Part shown: piece after piece, positions 13,659 to 61,010 of the stretch
Position numbering within the stretch: the stretch's first letter is position 1
Layout: each line of letters opens with the position of its first letter
IMG/VR virus record: IMGVR_UViG_3300022876_000002
DNA length: 64,000 bases
Origin: a virus
Lineage: Duplodnaviria; Caudoviricetes
Strand: one strand, 5' to 3'
The notes under the pieces: generated by a model
Told to the model about the DNA's origin: nothing
Database searches by the model: none
The model's input: the letters and a program-made list of their open reading frames with translations, nothing else
Translations under genes and position numbers: made by a program

Positions 13659-14087
13659 TTATAGGAAAGGCTTGTGTTGGCTGTTGTCATAGGTATAAAT
13701 GTTCCCATTCATACTGATTAGTGCATCATTCTTCAGATTGATGACCTCGTTAAAGATCAACAAGTCCTTAGAGTGCGATCCTTTCCTGCTCAAGCTTACC
13801 GCTGCAGAACTGATGAAGCCACACATCTCCTTTAACGTTAATGACACCGGGAACCTACACTCCCATCCCCTTACACCTTGGGACAGTTGTGGGATCTCAG
13901 CTGTGTCATCGCGTATTAAGTCGATACGTCCACCGTAAATACCTAACTTGTACTCAAACGCCAACCCTGTGGGGGTTTTTACTACTGAGTATTTGAATCC
14001 TTTCAGCTCCAGGTAACGACTCCATACGCAGAACAAAGCCAGTAACGTTACAACGCACGCAATGAAATTCAGAGCTACGTCTAACAT
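13659..14087 (-). CDS. Hypothetical protein with an N-terminal transmembrane segment
   Basis: VALNFIACVVTLLALFCVW hydrophobic stretch; visibly AT-rich codon usage. Confidence 0.65.
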   Translation of the reverse strand: MLDVALNFIACVVTLLALFCVWSRYLELKGFKYSVVKTPTGLAFEYKLGIYGGRIDLIRDDTAEIPQLSQGVRGWECRFPVSLTLKEMCGFISSAAVSLSRKGSHSKDLLIFNEVINLKNDALISMNGNIYTYDNSQHKPFL

Positions 14088-14091
14088 AAGG

Positions 14092-14838
14092 TCACCTGCT
14101 AAATATTCTGTGTTGATTTTGACTAATAACCGATTTGATAATCGTTTTATTAGACGCCTGTTGTTTGAACAATAAGATGTAATCTTGGAAATAGGCTCTA
14201 GAGGCGTTGGTTAGCTGAGTCCAGATAGAACCATTGTGTCCGTACAGTTCGTTGAACCCTGCTGCTAACGACTCGTGCCAAGAGTCTATTTGACAAATCC
14301 CATCGTCGTCATTGTCCCCACACTTGTTTTCCCTGACGTACGAGATCACCGCAGCATCGATGTCATTGAACCGCACATTGGTGAGGATACTGACTTCCGA
14401 TACCATGATTACAAAAGCACCGTCTACGCTGCGTCTGAACCGTTGTCGGTTATAACGCAGGCAGTTACAGATACTTTTGATCTCGTTGTCGTCAAAGTAC
14501 GTGCTAGCTACTTTGTTAATGAAAGCAATAGCAAATGCCACAGCTCCTTCCTGGGGATCGGTTCCTACGAAGCCACGACCGGTTTCCATGAGCATAACAC
14601 TGGCCAACAGAATGCCCTGACTATCGACATTCAATTGTTGTGCCTCTGCAACCTCCTTAGCCGTCACTAGAGCATGTTGTAGCCATGCAGTGTCATAACC
14701 CCTAGGGTTACCTTTAATGTGCTTGTAAACGCCGATAACGAAGTCCAGTGGCAATACGTCAGCTACCGAATCCAAGATACTCCTAAAAGTAGCTAAGTCC
14801 TTGCGGTCTTGGATGGTAAACCGTGTCGTCATAAACAA
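14092..14838 (-). CDS. HD-domain-like protein with degenerate metal ligands
   Basis: GYDTAWLQHALVTAKEVAE...ILLASVMLMETGR aligns by eye with HD-family aHdwxHxxRV...llAALLHDIG; HD replaced by ME. Confidence 0.5.
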   Translation of the reverse strand: MFMTTRFTIQDRKDLATFRSILDSVADVLPLDFVIGVYKHIKGNPRGYDTAWLQHALVTAKEVAEAQQLNVDSQGILLASVMLMETGRGFVGTDPQEGAVAFAIAFINKVASTYFDDNEIKSICNCLRYNRQRFRRSVDGAFVIMVSEVSILTNVRFNDIDAAVISYVRENKCGDNDDDGICQIDSWHESLAAGFNELYGHNGSIWTQLTNASRAYFQDYILLFKQQASNKTIIKSVISQNQHRIFSR

Positions 14839-20060: not shown

Positions 20061-20068
20061 GTGATATA
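20061..20068 (-). promoter_or_regulatory. Early-promoter variant TATATCAC
   Basis: gtgatata on +, in the same flanking context (gtgatatagg) as the TATATTAC copies; upstream of 19964. Confidence 0.5.
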
Positions 20069-20088
20069 GGCTTGAAATATTCTTACTG

Positions 20089-43805: not shown

Positions 43806-43813
43806 GTAATATA
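43806..43813 (-). promoter_or_regulatory. phiKZ-type early promoter motif TATATTAC
   Basis: ggtaatatagg on +, in a 49-nt divergent intergenic gap. Confidence 0.7.
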
Positions 43814-43826
43814 GGTTTAAAAAATT

Positions 43827-56625: not shown

Positions 56626-57462
56626 GTGGTTATTATGGACTCTAAACTATACAATATGTCTACGATTAATAAATACACTGCACGCCCAGGTCTGGCAATG
56701 CCGCTTCACACCAGAGTAAAAATCCCTGGTGGTTGGACCACTTTAGGTTTACTGAAACTCAATGACTTGGTAGTTACTCCGGATGGCAACTACGTACCCG
56801 TTACTGGTATTTACCCCCAGGGGGTCACCGATAACTACAAGTTCCTGTTCGAAGACGGCAGGGAAGCCGAGTCTCATCCACTACACCAGTGGGCGGTTTA
56901 CGAAGACAACCAGCTTACCCCCATGGTCACTACCACCTTGGATATCTTGAACCACTTTAGTGACTTCGAGTACAGTATTCCTCTGGTAGGTCGCCTTGGT
57001 GTACAGCAAGCTTGCTTGAGTGACCAAGAGCTAATAGATATAGCTCACCAGTTATTAACTGGCATAATCACGTTCCCCAAAGTGGAAGAGCTGCATTACG
57101 AAGACCGGTTAACGATCGCCCTAACAATGATCGAATACCAGGATGCCACCCACACTGACAATGGCGTCTTGATCTCCACTACGTCAGACACAGCCGCATA
57201 CACCCTGAGAGACCTGATCTGGTCATTAGGTGGGATTGTGTATATGGAAGCACAGGACCCATATATCCTGCGTGTGCTGCAACGAGATATCCGTAACCCA
57301 GAGAACCTGGTTAGTGATACCATACATCAGCGCACCAAGTCACTGAAACTGACAGGCATTACCAGAGACGACCCGGTAGAAACTGTGTGCATTAGCATCG
57401 GTGACGACCAAAAGCTTTATGTGATTGGTAGTTACCTAGTCACGCATAACGGCGAATGCTAA
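56626..57462 (+). CDS. Free-standing intein-like (Hint + degenerate LAGLIDADG) protein
   Basis: AMPLHTRV..GWTTLG.LK.ND.V.TPDG...YPQG...FEDG...HQWAV...TVCISI...LVTHN; domain 56695-57450 (252 aa); only 23 aa before and GEC-stop after. Confidence 0.85.
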   Translation: MVIMDSKLYNMSTINKYTARPGLAMPLHTRVKIPGGWTTLGLLKLNDLVVTPDGNYVPVTGIYPQGVTDNYKFLFEDGREAESHPLHQWAVYEDNQLTPMVTTTLDILNHFSDFEYSIPLVGRLGVQQACLSDQELIDIAHQLLTGIITFPKVEELHYEDRLTIALTMIEYQDATHTDNGVLISTTSDTAAYTLRDLIWSLGGIVYMEAQDPYILRVLQRDIRNPENLVSDTIHQRTKSLKLTGITRDDPVETVCISIGDDQKLYVIGSYLVTHNGEC

Positions 57463-57483: not shown

Positions 57484-57515
57484 CTTACCCTCTAGCCCTA
57501 GGGCTAGAGGGTAAG
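57484..57515. terminator. 32-nt perfect palindrome between convergent genes
   Basis: cttaccctctagccctagggctagagggtaag. Confidence 0.7.
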
Positions 57516-57517
57516 TA

Positions 57518-57676
57518 TTACGGGTATTTCTCAAAAGCACGTACCAAGTTTTCGAGGATCATGATTTGGTTATCTACCAAGTACACTAACTCGTCTTCCG
57601 GATGCAATTGCTCTTTCTGTCTAACAGCGCCCTCCAGTAATTGGAGAGCTTCCTGCTTCGTCATTTTAACGCGCAT
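57518..57676 (-). CDS. Small protein missed by the ORF track (52 aa, MRVKMTKQEALQLLEGAVRQKEQLHPEDELVYLVDNQIMILENLVRAFEKYP)
   Basis: RBS GGGAGAG; stop abuts the palindrome. Confidence 0.65.
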   Translation of the reverse strand: MRVKMTKQEALQLLEGAVRQKEQLHPEDELVYLVDNQIMILENLVRAFEKYP

Positions 57677-57694
57677 GGCGCTCTCCCATCCTGG

Positions 57695-58045
57695 TTAGGG
57701 TGATGGCTCGTTGGTAAGGTCTACAGACACACAACCAGTTGTATTGATTGTTAACCCGCCGTCTTGGGAAGTCAGTGCATTTGCAGTGCGACTCAACACG
57801 ACGTGCTTAGAAACAAATCTGTAAGCACCTTTAATCGACGGACTAAGCTGCATAGCCTCTTCAGTCAATTCCTGGTAACGTTTGTACATTGCCAGACCAA
57901 TAGCCCGTTCGTTGGAACCGACAGCAGCATTAAGATGAAGATCACGGTAATCCAGGTATTCTTCCATTTTGGCGTCAGCTTGCTTAAGCAGATCGGTGAT
58001 CTTCTTCCGCAAAGCCTTATCGGCAAAATCAACTACAACACCCAT
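57695..58045 (-). CDS. Small protein, motif-array member (MGVVVDF...)
   Basis: TAATG overlap with the upstream stop fixes the start at 58045. Confidence 0.75.
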   Translation of the reverse strand: MGVVVDFADKALRKKITDLLKQADAKMEEYLDYRDLHLNAAVGSNERAIGLAMYKRYQELTEEAMQLSPSIKGAYRFVSKHVVLSRTANALTSQDGGLTINTTGCVSVDLTNEPSP

Positions 58046-58239
58046 TACAACTGCCAATGCGCTTCCAGCGCTTCGATCAACTCTTCAAAACCATCGCACG
58101 GATCAGTGAGCTGCTCTTCGCCATCCCAGGCAACCCACTTGTCAGGGATCGGATCGTAACCCATATCGAGGGAAACGTGGTTCTCACGAGAGTATTGTTG
58201 GATTGCGGCAAAACGATCTTCCAAGGATTTCTTAACCAT
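58045..58239 (-). CDS. Small protein (64 aa), paralog of 16874..17131; lacks the array motif
   Basis: TAATG coupling at both ends. Confidence 0.75.
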   Translation of the reverse strand: MVKKSLEDRFAAIQQYSRENHVSLDMGYDPIPDKWVAWDGEEQLTDPCDGFEELIEALEAHWQL

Positions 58240-58562
58240 TACTCGTTCTCCAGTTCAGCCAAGTAGGAATGGATGGCGGTATTATTGGGAGTCTTTTTGA
58301 TACCATCCCAATCTACCTTTTTGGTAACAGGTTGCGTAGGGTTACCGTGGTAGTCCAACTGGGCTTCTACCAAGTAACGGGCAAACGACGTACTAACTTC
58401 GTTCTTACGTTGCTGAGCATAAGCCAGCCCGTACTTGGCGCAGTTGTCGTTGTAGAAGTCACCACCTTCCTGGAAGCGGCGGTACCACGAGGACTTCTCG
58501 TCAAACAACTCACGCTTACGCGCCAGCGCTTCCTGTTGTTTCTGTTCTTTACTTTTACGCAT
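58239..58562 (-). CDS. Small protein (107 aa); lacks the array motif
   Basis: TAATG coupling at both ends. Confidence 0.75.
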   Translation of the reverse strand: MRKSKEQKQQEALARKRELFDEKSSWYRRFQEGGDFYNDNCAKYGLAYAQQRKNEVSTSFARYLVEAQLDYHGNPTQPVTKKVDWDGIKKTPNNTAIHSYLAELENE

Positions 58563-58756
58563 TATTTACGCCCCATAGCTTCGAGAGCCAAAGCAAAACG
58601 TTCATTACTAAGACGACCGTACTCATCATGCAAACGCTGACGTTCAACCGGATCTTTCTCTTGACGGTACTTAGCCAAGAGCTCAGCCTGCTGGTTCTCC
58701 AGCTTACGCATTTCAGCACGGAAATTGTCGCCGGTAAATTGCAGGACCTTACCCAT
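58562..58756 (-). CDS. Small helical protein, motif-array member (MGKVLQF...)
   Basis: TGATG and TAATG coupling. Confidence 0.75.
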   Translation of the reverse strand: MGKVLQFTGDNFRAEMRKLENQQAELLAKYRQEKDPVERQRLHDEYGRLSNERFALALEAMGRK

Positions 58757-59094
58757 CAGGTAATAACCTTTTCCTTGATGTGCTGAATAACCTCAGCCAG
58801 GCTGTTGTGTTGAGTAATTACCCGATCACCAAGGAAAGCATTTTTGCGCCCCATCATGCATTGCCAAGTAACGTCACACTTGCTGAACACGCGAATGGTA
58901 ACCCCATGGGATTCCATAACCTGGCAGTTAGGGCGTACTTGATGATCTACCTGCACGCCAACCCCGTGCTTAAAGCACTCGATTATCAGATCATTGAGTT
59001 CCGGGTCGTGCTTTTTCAGCTCTTCCAAAACTTTCTGATGCGCTTCAATCCAACGCTCTACGTAGCTGATGTGGTTACGGATTTCAGGACCCAT
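58756..59094 (-). CDS. Small protein (112 aa); lacks the array motif
   Basis: TAATG and TGATG coupling. Confidence 0.72.
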   Translation of the reverse strand: MGPEIRNHISYVERWIEAHQKVLEELKKHDPELNDLIIECFKHGVGVQVDHQVRPNCQVMESHGVTIRVFSKCDVTWQCMMGRKNAFLGDRVITQHNSLAEVIQHIKEKVIT

Positions 59095-59303
59095 TACTTA
59101 ATCCCCAATTGACTTTTGATTTCACCGATCTCGATTTTGATTTGGCCGCCACGAATAGCCGCCTGCTCACGCGTGTGCACATCAGGCGACGTACGCAGGA
59201 TACGATCCCAGTAAGCAACCGTACGCTCGAGTTCTTCAATACGGCTAAGCGCTACTACATTACGCTTCCTACGAAAAGCATCCATCTGGACAACTTGGCC
59301 CAT
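59094..59303 (-). CDS. Small helical protein, motif-array member (MGQVVQMDAFRRKR...), 69 aa
   Basis: ATG at 59303 behind GAGGT, 7 nt after the upstream stop. Confidence 0.75.
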   Translation of the reverse strand: MGQVVQMDAFRRKRNVVALSRIEELERTVAYWDRILRTSPDVHTREQAAIRGGQIKIEIGEIKSQLGIK

Positions 59304-59310
59304 ACACACC

Positions 59311-59613
59311 TCAAATGTTGGTATAAGGGATCTCGTTGTCGTAATCCCGTTTGAACTTTGCACCCAAGTCTTCGAAAGCTTGGAGCATCCCTTCGTTTTC
59401 TTCTACAGCAGTACTGACAATAGACTGGAACTCATCGGAGATAACCGCGTCCCCTTGCATAGAGCGCCAGCAACCCAAAGCATACTTGACTGAAATTATC
59501 CGGGTCTCTACCAGATCCGGTAAAAGGAATCCTGGTAGCCCGCCGTACTCTGCCAAGATACGGTTGATTTCACGCCTGGCCTTCGCCGTGTAAATACTCA
59601 GTACGTTACCCAT
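59311..59613 (-). CDS. Small protein, motif-array member (MGNVLSI...)
   Basis: 8-nt overlap with the upstream gene end. Confidence 0.72.
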   Translation of the reverse strand: MGNVLSIYTAKARREINRILAEYGGLPGFLLPDLVETRIISVKYALGCWRSMQGDAVISDEFQSIVSTAVEENEGMLQAFEDLGAKFKRDYDNEIPYTNI

Positions 59614-59860
59614 GACGGTTCATCCACGGACAAGTAGGAGAGATAAATGCTTTAGGGAACTTAGTCCAGAAAGCATCACGAATTTGATTAGCCTTGTTTA
59701 CACAAACAGTACCTTGTTTATGCAACTCAGCTGCGAGCTCAGGGTCCGATGTCATAGTCGACTGGACGTAATACGAATTACCAGAAATAGTTAGCGCCAT
59801 CACTTGGCTAACCATACGGGCACGTTCAAGAGACTCGTTAATATCAATTACCGGGTACAT
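59606..59860 (-). CDS. Small protein, motif-array member (MYPVIDI...), 84 aa
   Basis: ATG at 59860 behind AAGGAG; the ORF-track extension runs through a terminator. Confidence 0.72.
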   Translation of the reverse strand: MYPVIDINESLERARMVSQVMALTISGNSYYVQSTMTSDPELAAELHKQGTVCVNKANQIRDAFWTKFPKAFISPTCPWMNRHG

Positions 59861-59883
59861 ACTGCTACTCCTTAGCTGTATAC

Positions 59884-59909
59884 AAAAAATTGAGGACCCG
59901 AAGGTCCCC
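59884..59909 (-). terminator. Intrinsic terminator inside the small-gene array
   Basis: On -: ggggacc-ttcg-ggtcctc-aatttttt. Confidence 0.7.
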
Positions 59910-59916
59910 AAGCTTA

Positions 59917-60240
59917 CTACAGACCGCGCCTGGCTTTCACATCATCGTGATGAGCCATTAACTCGCGGAACTCCTCGCGCAAGGCATCGTTAATAGCCCT
60001 ACCCTCAGCAACCACCTTTTGAGCTTCTTCTTGAGCTTCGGCGTACTGAGGGGACAAAGCACCAAATGCTTTCAAAGCCGCACAAGACTTCTTAGCAGCT
60101 TCGATTTGGCGTTCAAGGATCTCGTTACGCACCCTTGTGGACTTTTCACGGTAGGCTCGTTGTGCATCCCTTACCGTGATCATTTCGTTCTTGGCACTGT
60201 GTAGCGAAAGATCAGTACCGATGTTAACTACTTTACCCAT
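59917..60240 (-). CDS. Small coiled-coil protein, motif-array member (MGKVVNI...)
   Basis: RBS GAGGT. Confidence 0.75.
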   Translation of the reverse strand: MGKVVNIGTDLSLHSAKNEMITVRDAQRAYREKSTRVRNEILERQIEAAKKSCAALKAFGALSPQYAEAQEEAQKVVAEGRAINDALREEFRELMAHHDDVKARRGL

Positions 60241-60254
60241 TACGATTACCTCGA

Positions 60255-60515
60255 TTACATAGCAGCCAGTTGTTGACGGAGTTCAGCCAGTTTACGACGT
60301 TCGTCATTGGCCATGGACAGCGCAATGAACTTATCGTCCGCACGGGTAAACTCTTTGCTGAGATCCATGAAAGTCTGGATCTGATGCTCAACCCTTTCGA
60401 TATCGCAGTTCAGTTCATACACTGCGATAACCCGATCACGGCGTGCTACGCGTGCGGCTTCTTTAGCCATAGCCATTGCATTTACACGATCAGCAAAATT
60501 GATTACGTTGGTCAT
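60255..60515 (-). CDS. Small coiled-coil protein, motif-array member (MTNVINF...)
   Basis: RBS GAGGGTAAGG; first gene after the early promoter. Confidence 0.75.
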   Translation of the reverse strand: MTNVINFADRVNAMAMAKEAARVARRDRVIAVYELNCDIERVEHQIQTFMDLSKEFTRADDKFIALSMANDERRKLAELRQQLAAM

Positions 60516-60570
60516 TACCTTACCCTCAAGTGATTAGTAGATCAAATGATCTACTGCTACATTCATCCAG

Positions 60571-60578
60571 GTAATATA
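60571..60578 (-). promoter_or_regulatory. phiKZ-type early promoter motif TATATTAC driving the array
   Basis: ggtaatatagg on +, intergenic, 56 nt upstream of 60515. Confidence 0.7.
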
Positions 60579-60598
60579 GGTCCAAGACTTTCCAGAAA

Positions 60599-60859
60599 TT
60601 AACCGGTCGTAATTCTGGCCATTACGATTAACGGTTGTTTGTATTGACTGTTGTACAACGCTATAGCTTTTTTGATGTTACTCATTATCTTGCTAGCCTC
60701 CTGTATTAAGAAAGTGCGTTTACCTGGACGCCACCAAGGGCAATCAGCTGCTTCCTTAGCTAATCTAAGGTATTCAAACTGTGCCTCAGCAATATCCTTT
60801 AATAGCACTGTACGGTGTTCTAACGTATACCTGTTCCTGAGTGATACAACTGAGCTCAC
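60599..60859 (-). CDS. Small protein, motif-array member (MSSVVSL...)
   Basis: GTG start behind GGTAGGGGG; AT-rich codon usage. Confidence 0.68.
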   Translation of the reverse strand: MSSVVSLRNRYTLEHRTVLLKDIAEAQFEYLRLAKEAADCPWWRPGKRTFLIQEASKIMSNIKKAIALYNSQYKQPLIVMARITTG

Positions 60860-61010
60860 TATAAAACCCCCTACCCCGACAAAATTAGTCTAAAGAATTA
60901 TAACACGGTTTTTAAATATTACTTTTATTTTTTAACCCTAATAACCAATTCTATTTTTAAGCAATGTTATGCCCAAACCCTTAAGGCGACCAGCAATCAG
61001 GAAAACCACT

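What the first reader, a model, noticed from the sequence alone, without database searches (positions are those of the whole stretch)
57695..60859. Early-gene array: 8 otherwise unrelated small proteins share one N-terminal motif, M-x-x-V-[VIL]-x-[FILM]
Seen: of 12 consecutive minus-strand small genes (57518-60859), eight begin MSSVVSL, MTNVINF, MGKVVNI, MYPVIDI, MGNVLSI, MGQVVQM, MGKVLQF and MGVVVDF. Val is always at position 4, hydrophobics are at 5 and 7, and a small polar or acidic residue is at 6. Three of these starts were hidden inside longer ORF-track calls; they are fixed independently by RBS placement or TAATG coupling. The Val codons vary (GTA/GTT/GTC), and the bodies (mostly predicted helical hairpins/coiled coils of 64-116 aa) show no similarity by eye, so the constraint acts on the peptide. 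A phiKZ-type early promoter (TATATTAC, 60571) sits at the head of the run. Established (from memory): the alphaproteobacterial SspB tail (about KIVSLDQFRKK) docks on the ClpX N-domain, and VVQMDAFRRK and VVSL resemble it closely. Inference: this may be a modular host-takeover toolkit with a shared docking peptide for one hub and variable bodies that each capture a different target. Candidates are phage-encoded ClpXP adaptors or decoys, a shared beta-strand hetero-assembly tag, or a sorting/degradation signal. I know of no description of such an array.
Basis: partly seen in the sequence, partly recalled or inferred. Interest (0 to 1): 0.92.

Follow-up and report, generated by a model that had tools for sequence, protein, structure and literature searches.

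The report
Phage proteins mimicking SspB's ClpX tail
Eight small early genes of a soil jumbo phage start with the same short peptide, and in the best-conserved one this peptide closely copies the tail by which the alphaproteobacterial adaptor SspB docks on the ClpX protease, so the phage may plug into or block its host's protein-degradation machine.

Summary
Eight of 12 consecutive minus-strand small genes start M-x-x-V-[VIL]-x-[FILM] (chance about 2e-17), and gene calls in related phages confirm the starts.

The eight are not equivalent. One gene, g06 (59094-59303), belongs to a conserved family of EL-like jumbo phages (34 clusters; includes EL gp160). Its signature is MG-x-V-[VI]-x-[MFLI]-x-x-[WFY]-[RK]-x-x-[RK], then a variable 0-32 aa linker predicted to be disordered, then a helical hairpin.

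Alphaproteobacterial SspB proteins end in VVSLDAFRKK, and g06 has VVQMDAFRRK. A scoring matrix built only from the phage proteins ranks SspB tails first among 1.05 million peptide windows. Next come the N-termini of DUF4169, a small protein often encoded directly after sspB.

A co-fold of g06 with the Caulobacter ClpX N-domain scored 0.60 against 0.02 for the best control. The tool rates this as weak support.

The other seven genes share only the four-residue core or indel variants of the motif. Their bodies show no detectable similarity. EL and a complete 238-kb relative each carry a single copy.

Best reading (about 0.45): a ClpX N-domain docking peptide. Whether it acts as decoy, adaptor or timer is open. 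The host is unknown and nothing has been tested experimentally.

The parts
60599..60859 (-). g01, 86 aa, GTG start, MSSVVSLRNRY; 4-residue core VVSL only
   Evidence: orthologues start MSAQILPL / MSGQIVPL with register +1; does not score on the motif matrices
60571..60587 (-). early-promoter-like site TCTTGGACCTATATTAC, between g01 and g02
   Evidence: 3 sites in the window against 0.12 expected; resembles the annotated EL promoters ATTTTAAACCTACATTATT
60255..60515 (-). g02, 86 aa, MTNVINFADRV; core plus weak extended match
   Evidence: orthologues MTKVINL / MSNVISF; 9.1 bits on the g06-family matrix
59917..60240 (-). g03, 107 aa, MGKVVNIGTDL; core only; no orthologue in the related arrays examined
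59606..59860 (-). g04, 84 aa, MYPVIDINESL; start lies inside a longer TTG ORF; AAGGAG Shine-Dalgarno upstream
   Evidence: orthologues MFPVSDV / MQRVVNV, decaying to MDSVKVEE and MIDINVAR in deeper relatives
59311..59613 (-). g05, 100 aa, MGNVLSIYTAKARR; by eye its family looks like a 2-residue-deletion variant (VLDFWRAKAKR in L037)
59094..59303 (-). g06, 69 aa, MGQVVQMDAFRRKRN; member of the conserved EL gp160-like family; full mimic of the alphaproteobacterial SspB tail VVSLDAFRKK; helical hairpin body
58756..59094 (-). g07, 112 aa, no motif (MGPEIRNH)
58562..58756 (-). g08, 64 aa, MGKVLQFTGDNFRAEM; by eye, both halves of the motif separated by a 2-residue insertion; sits at the position held in relatives by the 82-aa family (MGKVVNLDDYRND), a BLAST-linked paralogue of g06
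58239..58562 (-). g09, 107 aa, no motif; matches phrog_38094 (unknown function)
58045..58239 (-). g10, 64 aa, no motif
57695..58045 (-). g11, 116 aa, MGVVVDFADKALRKK; by eye, both halves of the motif separated by a 2-residue insertion; its body is swapped for an unrelated cassette in a strain 98% identical in nucleotides
57518..57676 (-). g12, 52 aa, no motif; last gene of the run
57484..57515 (-). perfect 15-bp inverted repeat followed by a T-rich run: terminator-like end of the array
   Evidence: read directly from the sequence

Best explanation
The shared N-terminus is a short linear docking peptide that mimics the 'XB' tail of the adaptor SspB, which tethers SspB to the N-terminal zinc-binding domain of ClpX.

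The founding and best-conserved carrier is g06. It belongs to an early-gene family of EL-like jumbo phages (EL gp160-like). The family is built like SspB turned round: a terminal peptide, a flexible linker of variable length, then a small folded domain (a helical hairpin, with an added beta-hairpin in some members).

In this phage lineage the gene row has expanded. Seven further small helical proteins carry the core of the peptide, or variants of it with insertions or deletions.

Shown here: the motif, its conservation, its architecture, and its similarity to the SspB tail and the DUF4169 N-terminus.

Inferred: that it binds host ClpX. Binding would have one of three consequences. I rank them in this order:
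1. Decoy: competitive occupation of the N-domain, which would block SspB and other N-domain-dependent delivery.
2. Adaptor: delivery to ClpXP of whatever each body binds.
3. Timer: tether-assisted self-degradation that limits these early proteins to a short window.
For: Family and motif conservation. An exhaustive profile search finds 34 representative clusters, and those looked up lie on metagenomic contigs of up to 219-239 kb. Every one starts with the motif: M1 36/36, G2 32/36, V4 34/36, V/I5 35/36, M/F/L/I7 36/36, W/F/Y10 35/36, R/K11 33/36, R/K14 30/36. The rest of the protein is only 20-40% identical.

Architecture. Between the peptide and helix 1 lies an insert of 0-32 aa. In an AlphaFold2 model of a long-linker member, residues 1-36 have no regular structure (pLDDT 51-64) while the folded domain has pLDDT of 92 or more. 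The g06 model is a helical hairpin with mean pLDDT 89; its first 10 residues average 71.

The SspB tail. A genome scan for V-V-x-L-D-x-F-R-K-K returns almost only Alphaproteobacteria. 118 of 119 matches lie within 5 aa of a stop codon. Three examples were scanned and are PF04386 SspB (E 1e-43 to 1e-48). The commonest tail is VVSLDAFRKK, against g06 VVQMDAFRRK.

Matrix scan. A matrix built only from residues 4-14 of the phage family ranks SspB tails first among 1.05 million windows in those loci. They score 18-25 bits, which is within the family's own range of 13-36 bits.

DUF4169. The next-best hits in that scan are the N-termini of DUF4169 proteins, for example MGNVINLNRFRKR. The DUF4169 gene starts 12-138 nt after sspB on the same strand in 21 of 38 loci. 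This is a bacterial precedent for the N-terminal orientation of the motif. HHalign aligns the phage family to DUF4169 over the N-terminal 17 columns only.

Co-fold of Caulobacter ClpX residues 1-62 (two copies) plus Zn with g06:
- The score was 0.60, and the best of 3 controls scored 0.02.
- The tool's mark was reached by 58 of 80 solved complexes and by 2 of 110 mismatched pairs. A score of 0.60 or under was seen in only 7 of those 80 solved complexes and in both mismatches that passed. The tool's verdict is therefore weak support.
- The three runs agree in at least 84% of contacts, and the partner's pLDDT is at least 85.
- My own alignment and a riding zinc were used, so the calibration holds only roughly.

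Known biology. [quoted passage not shown]

No phage-encoded partner of this kind. There is no ClpX zinc finger or ClpP in EL, in the complete relative G003, or in the 99-kb contig. A ClpX partner would therefore be the host's.
Against: - No binding was measured. The co-fold pass is in the band that the tool itself calls weak, and no interface was returned.
- Only g06 (16 bits) and the 82-aa family of related phages (6.9 bits) score positively on the SspB-tail matrix. g01, g03, g05 and g08 share only the V-phi-x-phi core (phi = hydrophobic residue). g02, g11 and g04 score 5-9 bits on the family matrix. The 'indel variant' readings of g05, g08 and g11 are by eye.
- The host is unknown (soil or rhizosphere metagenomes). 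EL infects Pseudomonas, whose SspB tail is, from memory, of the LRVVK type. The EL gp160 motif (MSNVIDMFSWRDSK) does not score on the alpha-type tail matrix.
- That the alphaproteobacterial tail binds ClpX rests on analogy with E. coli and on my memory of Chien et al. 2007. I could not read that paper.
- The SspB tail is C-terminal and the phage peptide is N-terminal.
- AlphaFold2 models residues 2-10 of g06 as the start of helix 1 rather than as a free peptide.
- The SspB comparison began from a remembered resemblance, so there is some multiple-testing slack.
Confidence: 0.45

Rival explanations
1. The peptide docks on a hub other than ClpX. Candidates are another host protein with a peptide-binding groove (HslU, the sliding clamp, or FtsZ-tail binders such as FtsA, ZipA or MinC), or a conserved phage protein of EL-like phages (the HslV-like peptidase, the chaperonin, or a shell or import factor). 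On this reading the likeness to the SspB tail is convergent or coincidental.
For: The peptide-linker-domain architecture argues for docking in general, not for ClpX in particular. EL-like phages all carry HslV-like peptidase genes. The family is confined to this phage clade, as a phage-encoded partner would be. From memory, M-D-A-F-R-R-K also resembles the FtsZ C-terminal peptide I-P-A-F-L-R-K, and Q-M-D-A-F resembles the clamp-binding pentapeptide.
Against: The phage-derived matrix singles out SspB tails and the sspB-linked DUF4169 above a million other windows. The ClpX N-domain co-fold beats its controls by 0.58. Position 6 is not a conserved Gln, and the Pro of the FtsZ peptide is absent. 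The chimallin tails of EL show no such motif.
Confidence: 0.2
2. The eight genes are fast-diverging tandem paralogues. On this reading the shared N-terminus is simply the best-preserved remnant of common ancestry and has a structural role, such as the first turns of helix 1 or a homo- or hetero-oligomer contact. It is not a docking signal.
For: g06 and the 82-aa family are linked by BLAST and by HHalign over columns 1-29. All members are small helical proteins in one co-directional gene row, and a second pair of paralogues occurs in the same arrays (g07 and a 174-aa protein, HHalign probability 51-55%). AlphaFold2 continues helix 1 into residues 2-10 of g06. EL and G003 have a single copy, so the array is a recent expansion.
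Against: With the first 11 residues removed, no body similarity is detectable, although the profiles are shallow. In family members with linkers of up to 32 aa the peptide is separated from the fold and modelled as disordered, which a helix cap cannot explain. The peptide is far better conserved than the body across 34 clusters.
Confidence: 0.2
3. The peptide is an N-terminal degron read directly by the pore of an AAA+ protease (ClpX, ClpA, HslU or Lon). It would give these early proteins a short life without any N-domain tethering.
For: The motif keeps an exact or near-exact distance from Met1 in most members. From memory, Flynn et al. 2003 describe a ClpX N-terminal signal class of Met-basic-hydrophobic-hydrophobic-hydrophobic, which resembles M-G-K-V-V. 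The genes lie behind early-promoter-like sites.
Against: The best sequence match is to a tethering tail, not to a pore degron. The register shifts by one residue in three families. This rival was not tested here.
Confidence: 0.08
4. The constraint acts on translation. Codons 2-7 would be selected for efficient initiation or early elongation in tightly coupled small genes, and the peptide itself would have no function.
For: The starts are coupled (TAATG, ATGA) and the 5' codons are A/T-rich, for example GTA at codon 4 in 5 of 8 genes.
Against: Third positions vary while the amino-acid class is kept. The same peptide is conserved across 34 deeply diverged clusters with different codons. It also recurs at a protein C-terminus in bacteria, where initiation cannot be the cause.
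Confidence: 0.04

Closest known systems
SspB 'XB' tail (ClpX N-domain tethering peptide), alphaproteobacterial type ...VVSLDAFRKK-COOH
   Same: A short terminal peptive joined by a disordered linker to a small folded domain. The pattern is V-V-x-hydrophobic-x-x-aromatic-basic-basic-basic, and g06 is identical at 7 of 10 positions.
   Different: The phage peptide is at the N-terminus, not the C-terminus. The body is a helical hairpin with no SspB domain: Pfam gives no hit, and PF04386 is absent from the complete relative G003. The phage family prefers Met at position 7 and Trp at position 10. Binding to ClpX has not been shown.
DUF4169 (PF13770), a small alphaproteobacterial protein often encoded directly after sspB
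   Same: The N-terminal orientation of the same peptide (M-x-x-[VI]-[VI]-N-L-x-x-[FA]-R-K), in a protein of about 60-70 aa with a basic region after the motif. HHalign aligns the first 17 columns.
   Different: The bodies do not align. The DUF4169 model finds nothing in EL, G003 or the 99-kb contig. The function of DUF4169 is itself unknown: only one paper in the library mentions it.
SPO1 Gp53, a phage-encoded adaptor-like protein of Bacillus ClpCP (PMC6873191)
   Same: An early phage protein proposed to plug into a host AAA+ protease in the manner of an adaptor.
   Different: It targets a different protease (ClpC), involves no shared sequence motif, is a single protein rather than an array, and has experimental support.
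UmuD tethering of UmuD' to ClpX, and phage protease inhibitors (T4 PinA for Lon, lambda CIII for FtsH); all from memory
   Same: Short peptide signals that tether a partner to ClpX, and small phage proteins that interfere with host ATP-dependent proteases.
   Different: No sequence relationship was tested here. None of these forms a multi-gene array sharing one terminal peptide.

Membership tests
XB-type ClpX N-domain tethering peptides (functional class) | A short conserved peptide at a protein terminus | tested here: met
   Residues 1-14 are the best-conserved block of the g06 family across 36 sequences. Eight window genes carry its core at residues 4-7.
XB-type ClpX N-domain tethering peptides (functional class) | The peptide is separated from the folded domain by a flexible, length-variable linker | tested here: met
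   Insert lengths range from 0 to 32 aa. Residues 1-36 of P0020 are unstructured (pLDDT 51-64) next to a domain with pLDDT of 92 or more. In g06 itself the linker length is zero.
XB-type ClpX N-domain tethering peptides (functional class) | The sequence matches the XB consensus of a bacterial clade | tested here: met
   Met for g06 and for the 82-aa family of related phages against the alphaproteobacterial tail. Not met beyond the 4-residue core for g01, g03, g05 and g08.
XB-type ClpX N-domain tethering peptides (functional class) | Binds the ClpX N-terminal zinc-binding domain | tested here: inconclusive
   Co-fold score 0.60 against a best control of 0.02. The mark was reached by 58 of 80 solved complexes and 2 of 110 mismatched pairs, but a score of 0.60 or under was seen in only 7 of the 80 and in both mismatches that passed, so the verdict is weak support. 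There is no biochemistry.
XB-type ClpX N-domain tethering peptides (functional class) | Removing the peptide abolishes delivery to, or competition at, ClpXP | not testable with these tools
   Needs degradation assays.
SspB (PF04386) | An SspB substrate-binding domain | tested here: not met
   No Pfam hit for any of ten array proteins scanned. PF04386 is absent from G003.
DUF4169 (PF13770) | A match to the whole-domain model above its cut-off | tested here: not met
   No match at E up to 10 in G002, G003 or EL. Only the N-terminal 17 columns align by HHalign.
One paralogous gene family covering all eight genes | Detectable homology outside the shared peptide | tested here: not met
   blastp and HHalign with 11 residues trimmed find nothing among the motif families. 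Only g06 and the 82-aa family are linked. The profiles are shallow (Neff about 2), so remote paralogy is not excluded.
EL gp160-like early protein family (defined here) | The N-terminal signature plus a helix-turn-helix body with invariant R-E-(Q)-A-[AV]-I | tested here: met
   g06 only. Synteny next to the gp158-like gene and behind an early promoter in EL.

The most novel reading that the evidence does not exclude
The array is a library of phage-encoded ClpXP adaptors. One conserved docking peptide would recruit host ClpX, and each variable helical body would capture a different host or defence protein for destruction. This would be a bacterial counterpart of the way eukaryotic viruses hijack ubiquitin ligases. 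The uncharacterised DUF4169 protein would be the cell's own example of an N-terminally tethered ClpX partner.
Probability: 0.15. Interest if true: 0.92.

Novelty: new variant of a known kind. Interest (0 to 1): 0.76.

Why it matters
Tethering peptides for the ClpX N-domain are well known from SspB. I found no report, in the literature searches run here, of a phage protein family that carries such a peptide, let alone at the N-terminus or multiplied along an early-gene row.

If the docking is real, nucleus-forming jumbo phages of the EL group manipulate a central host protease in the first minutes of infection, by blocking it, redirecting it, or using it as a timer. The eight bodies would then be ready-made probes for what the phage needs removed or protected.

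It would also assign a first testable function to two unannotated families: EL gp160-like proteins and bacterial DUF4169.

The prediction is cheap to test with peptides and standard ClpXP assays.

Tried and rejected
Searches that gave nothing useful:
- Pfam and PHROGs on ten array proteins: no significant family except phrog_38094 for the motif-less g09. PHROGs on 36 family members: nothing.
- Nucleotide searches of the 3.6-kb region against isolate phages, near and distant modes: no match.
- tblastn of two family members against isolate phages: nothing relevant.
- PDB sequence search with g06 and with its first 22 residues: nothing.
- ESM Atlas feature search: best score 0.84, no lead.
- Foldseek of both models against PDB and the AlphaFold DB clusters: only generic helical hairpins, none with E of 0.001 or better.

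Ideas tested and dropped:
- Genome-wide enrichment of the 7-mer in Chimalliviridae. EL and the complete relative G003 each have exactly one real gene with it.
- Mimicry of the chimallin tails. The N- and C-termini of EL ChmA lack the motif.
- A phage-encoded ClpX or ClpP partner: absent.

Ideas considered by eye only and not adopted:
- Ribbon-helix-helix or Phd/YefM-type N-terminal strands. The hydrophobic spacing differs and the models are all-helical.
- Signal peptides. This explains only the 126-aa secreted proteins found in related arrays.

Not achieved:
- I could not retrieve the Caulobacter SspB structure paper or a review covering it, so the ClpX binding of the alphaproteobacterial tail is cited from memory.
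- The host could not be identified. The sequencing runs are soil and rhizosphere metagenomes and metatranscriptomes.

Full report
**What is there**

Window 57518-60859 holds twelve co-directional minus-strand genes of 52-116 aa. The run ends in a perfect 15-bp hairpin followed by a T-rich stretch (57484-57515).

Three of the starts lie inside longer mechanical ORFs. Each is backed by a Shine-Dalgarno sequence or by stop/start overlap. In addition, independent gene calls in related phages place the orthologue starts at the same residue.

A scan of every possible start codon in the whole window finds 17 matches to the motif, eight of them in this stretch. With the window's own amino-acid composition, the chance of 8 or more out of 12 is 2.4e-17. 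Third codon positions vary while the residue class is kept, so selection acts on the peptide.

The promoter-like site TATATTAC (60571-60587) is one of three such sites in the window, against 0.12 expected. It resembles the annotated EL promoters. It lies between the first and second gene, not at the head of the run.

**What kind of phage**

The flanking 202-aa gene is 34% identical to Pseudomonas phage EL gp158. EL encodes a nuclear shell protein and PhuZ, so this phage is a distant EL-like member of the nucleus-forming jumbo phages.

The window is 98% identical in nucleotides to a 99-kb IMG/VR contig. The region is also held in many soil and rhizosphere metagenomes and metatranscriptomes. The host is unknown.

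**The eight genes are not equivalent**

In EL itself, and in a complete 238-kb relative (G003), only one real gene carries the motif:
- EL gp160 starts MSNVIDMFSWRDSK and is the second gene behind an annotated early promoter.
- Its counterpart in G003 starts MGEVVQMQGWRDRK.

Both are orthologues of g06 (59094-59303, MGQVVQMDAFRRKRN).

An exhaustive profile search with the g06 family found 34 representative clusters. All are metagenomic, and those looked up lie on contigs of up to 219-239 kb. Every member starts with the same signature: M1 36/36, G2 32/36, V4 34/36, V/I5 35/36, M/F/L/I7 36/36, W/F/Y10 35/36, R/K11 33/36, R/K14 30/36.

After the signature comes an insert of 0-32 residues. Then follows a helix-turn-helix body with invariant R-E-(Q)-A-[AV]-I, and some members add a C-terminal beta-hairpin.

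AlphaFold2 gives g06 as a confident helical hairpin (mean pLDDT 89; first ten residues 71). In a long-linker member, residues 1-36 are unstructured (pLDDT 51-64) ahead of a well-defined domain (pLDDT 92 or more). A conserved terminal peptide on a linker of variable length next to a small fold is the anatomy of a docking motif.

**The other seven genes**

blastp and profile-profile comparison find no similarity between the bodies once the first 11 residues are removed, although the profiles are shallow.

In phages whose g06 orthologue is about 65-70% identical, the core is kept with conservative changes (MTKVINL, MGKVLDI, MQRVVNV). Sometimes the register shifts by one residue (MSAQILPL, MGVITVDF). 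In deeper relatives the g01, g02 and g04 families lose the motif (MEKVTAIG, MCKVTGIN, MDSVKVEE).

Relatives carry an 82-aa family at the position of g08. It starts MGKVVNLDDYRND and is linked to g06 by BLAST and by HHalign (probability 80%, columns 1-29). Other lineages add members of their own: MGEVVSLKDYRLQK, MGEVIQFPFNER and MNNVIQLFPAPKP.

By eye, g08 and g11 look like the full motif with a two-residue insertion (VLQF-TG-DNFR and VVDF-AD-KALRKK). The g05 family looks like a two-residue deletion (VLDFWRAKAKR). On position-specific scoring matrices, only g06 and the 82-aa family clearly match. g02, g11 and g04 match weakly.

The picture is one conserved family whose N-terminal module has spread, or been retained, along a lineage-specific expansion of small helical proteins.

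**Testing the ClpX lead**

Of 119 matches, 118 lie within five residues of a stop codon, and the commonest form is VVSLDAFRKK. Three examples scanned against Pfam are SspB, with E from 1e-43 to 1e-48. g06 reads VVQMDAFRRK, which is 7 of 10 identical with the other three positions conservative.

As a less biased test, I built a matrix from residues 4-14 of the 36 phage proteins alone. I scored all 1.05 million windows of the open frames in those bacterial loci. SspB tails are the top hits, at 18-25 bits, which is inside the phage family's own range.

The best hits that are not SspB tails were unexpected. They are the N-termini of a protein of about 62 aa, for example MGNVINLNRFRKR and MSADVVNLRQFRKQK, which Pfam identifies as DUF4169. 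Its gene begins 12-138 nt after sspB on the same strand in 21 of 38 loci. Bacteria therefore already use this peptide at an N-terminus, in a gene tied to sspB. HHalign aligns the phage family and DUF4169 over the first 17 columns only. Neither SspB nor DUF4169 as a whole domain is present in the phages.

**Co-fold**

I co-folded two copies of Caulobacter ClpX residues 1-62, with zinc, against g06. The result:
- The score was 0.60 (runs 0.57, 0.60, 0.62), and the best of three controls scored 0.02.
- The tool's mark was reached by 58 of 80 solved complexes and by 2 of 110 mismatched pairs. A score of 0.60 or under was seen in only 7 of those 80 and in both mismatches that passed. The verdict is therefore weak support.
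- The runs agree in at least 84% of contacts, and the partner's pLDDT is at least 85.
- My own alignment and a riding zinc depart from the calibration, and no interface was returned.

[quoted passage not shown] For the alphaproteobacterial tail I rely on analogy and on my memory of Chien et al. 2007. The phages encode no ClpX zinc finger or ClpP of their own.

**Reading**

The best-supported explanation is that the peptide docks these early proteins on the N-domain of host ClpX. It is strongest for g06 and uncertain for the rest.

What follows from docking is inference. A small, abundant early protein with this tail would compete with SspB and with other N-domain-dependent clients (decoy). If the hairpins bind targets, they would deliver those targets to ClpXP (adaptor). 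Alternatively, the tail may shorten the proteins' own lives (timer).

I put about 0.45 on ClpX docking overall. I give about 0.2 each to docking on another hub and to a purely ancestral or structural remnant of paralogy. An N-terminal pore degron and translational selection get small shares.

The main weaknesses are these:
- There is no experiment.
- The host is unknown.
- EL's Pseudomonas host is expected to have the LRVVK-type SspB tail.
- The orientation is reversed relative to SspB (N-terminal rather than C-terminal).
- Four of the eight genes show only a four-residue core.

**Comparison with what is known, and novelty**

The closest known entity is the SspB XB tail. The closest phage precedent is SPO1 Gp53, an adaptor-like protein for ClpCP (PMC6873191). 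My literature searches found no description of this phage family, of an N-terminal XB-like peptide in phages, or of any function for DUF4169.

I class the finding as a new variant of a known kind. The earlier scan note on the same stretch (e1-5367661) makes the same proposal. It is the same DNA read again, not independent evidence.

Noticed in passing
L115:3219-3413 (-), L055:2358-2546 (-), L054:6092-6277 (+), and 35 further alphaproteobacterial loci: DUF4169 (PF13770), a protein of about 62 aa with unknown function, starts with the same peptide that ends SspB ([VI][VI]NL[RK]x[FA]RK). Its gene begins 12-138 nt after sspB on the same strand in 21 of 38 loci. This suggests it is a second ClpX-tethered partner in the sspB operon. 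Only one paper in the library mentions the family.
   Followed up: partly
window 57696-58040 against IMG/VR contig G002 73285-73602: In a strain 98% identical in nucleotides, the body of g11 is replaced by an unrelated 318-nt cassette (MGMVKAVLNG...). The breakpoint lies just after codons 2-3, so gene bodies are exchanged behind a retained start region.
   Followed up: partly
G002 13681-14202 (contig coordinates, outside the window); EL gp015; G003 about 108611-109792 and 230915-231166: EL-like phages carry one to three HslV-like peptidase genes but no ClpP and no ClpX zinc finger. This may be a phage protease that needs a host or phage ATPase partner.
   Followed up: partly
L032:6568-6948, L035:1598-1978, L039:7516-7896 (plus two neighbouring paralogues in L039): Related arrays contain 126-aa proteins with cleavable-looking signal peptides (MIKVIGIAALILSSFAVQA...). 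These fit the 7-residue motif only because they are signal peptides. They are secreted small proteins sitting among cytoplasmic early genes.
   Followed up: no
window 56626-57462 (+): A 278-aa ORF matches only the N-terminal parts of terminase, primase and helicase-loader PHROG families. This pattern is typical of an intein or Hint domain, and an earlier scan note also calls it intein-like.
   Followed up: no
window 43806-43822 (-), 20061-20077 (-), 60571-60587 (-): There are three copies of the promoter-like word TTTTAAACCTATATTAC with up to 3 mismatches, against 0.12 expected. It matches the annotated EL early promoters ATTTTAAACCTACATTATT. A weaker look-alike lies upstream of g01, at about 60885-60905.
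   Followed up: partly
L033:6463-6987 and window 58756-59094: A 174-aa protein in related arrays is a probable paralogue of the motif-less g07 (HHalign probability 51-55% over 37 columns). Duplication therefore also acts on genes in this array that lack the motif.
   Followed up: no
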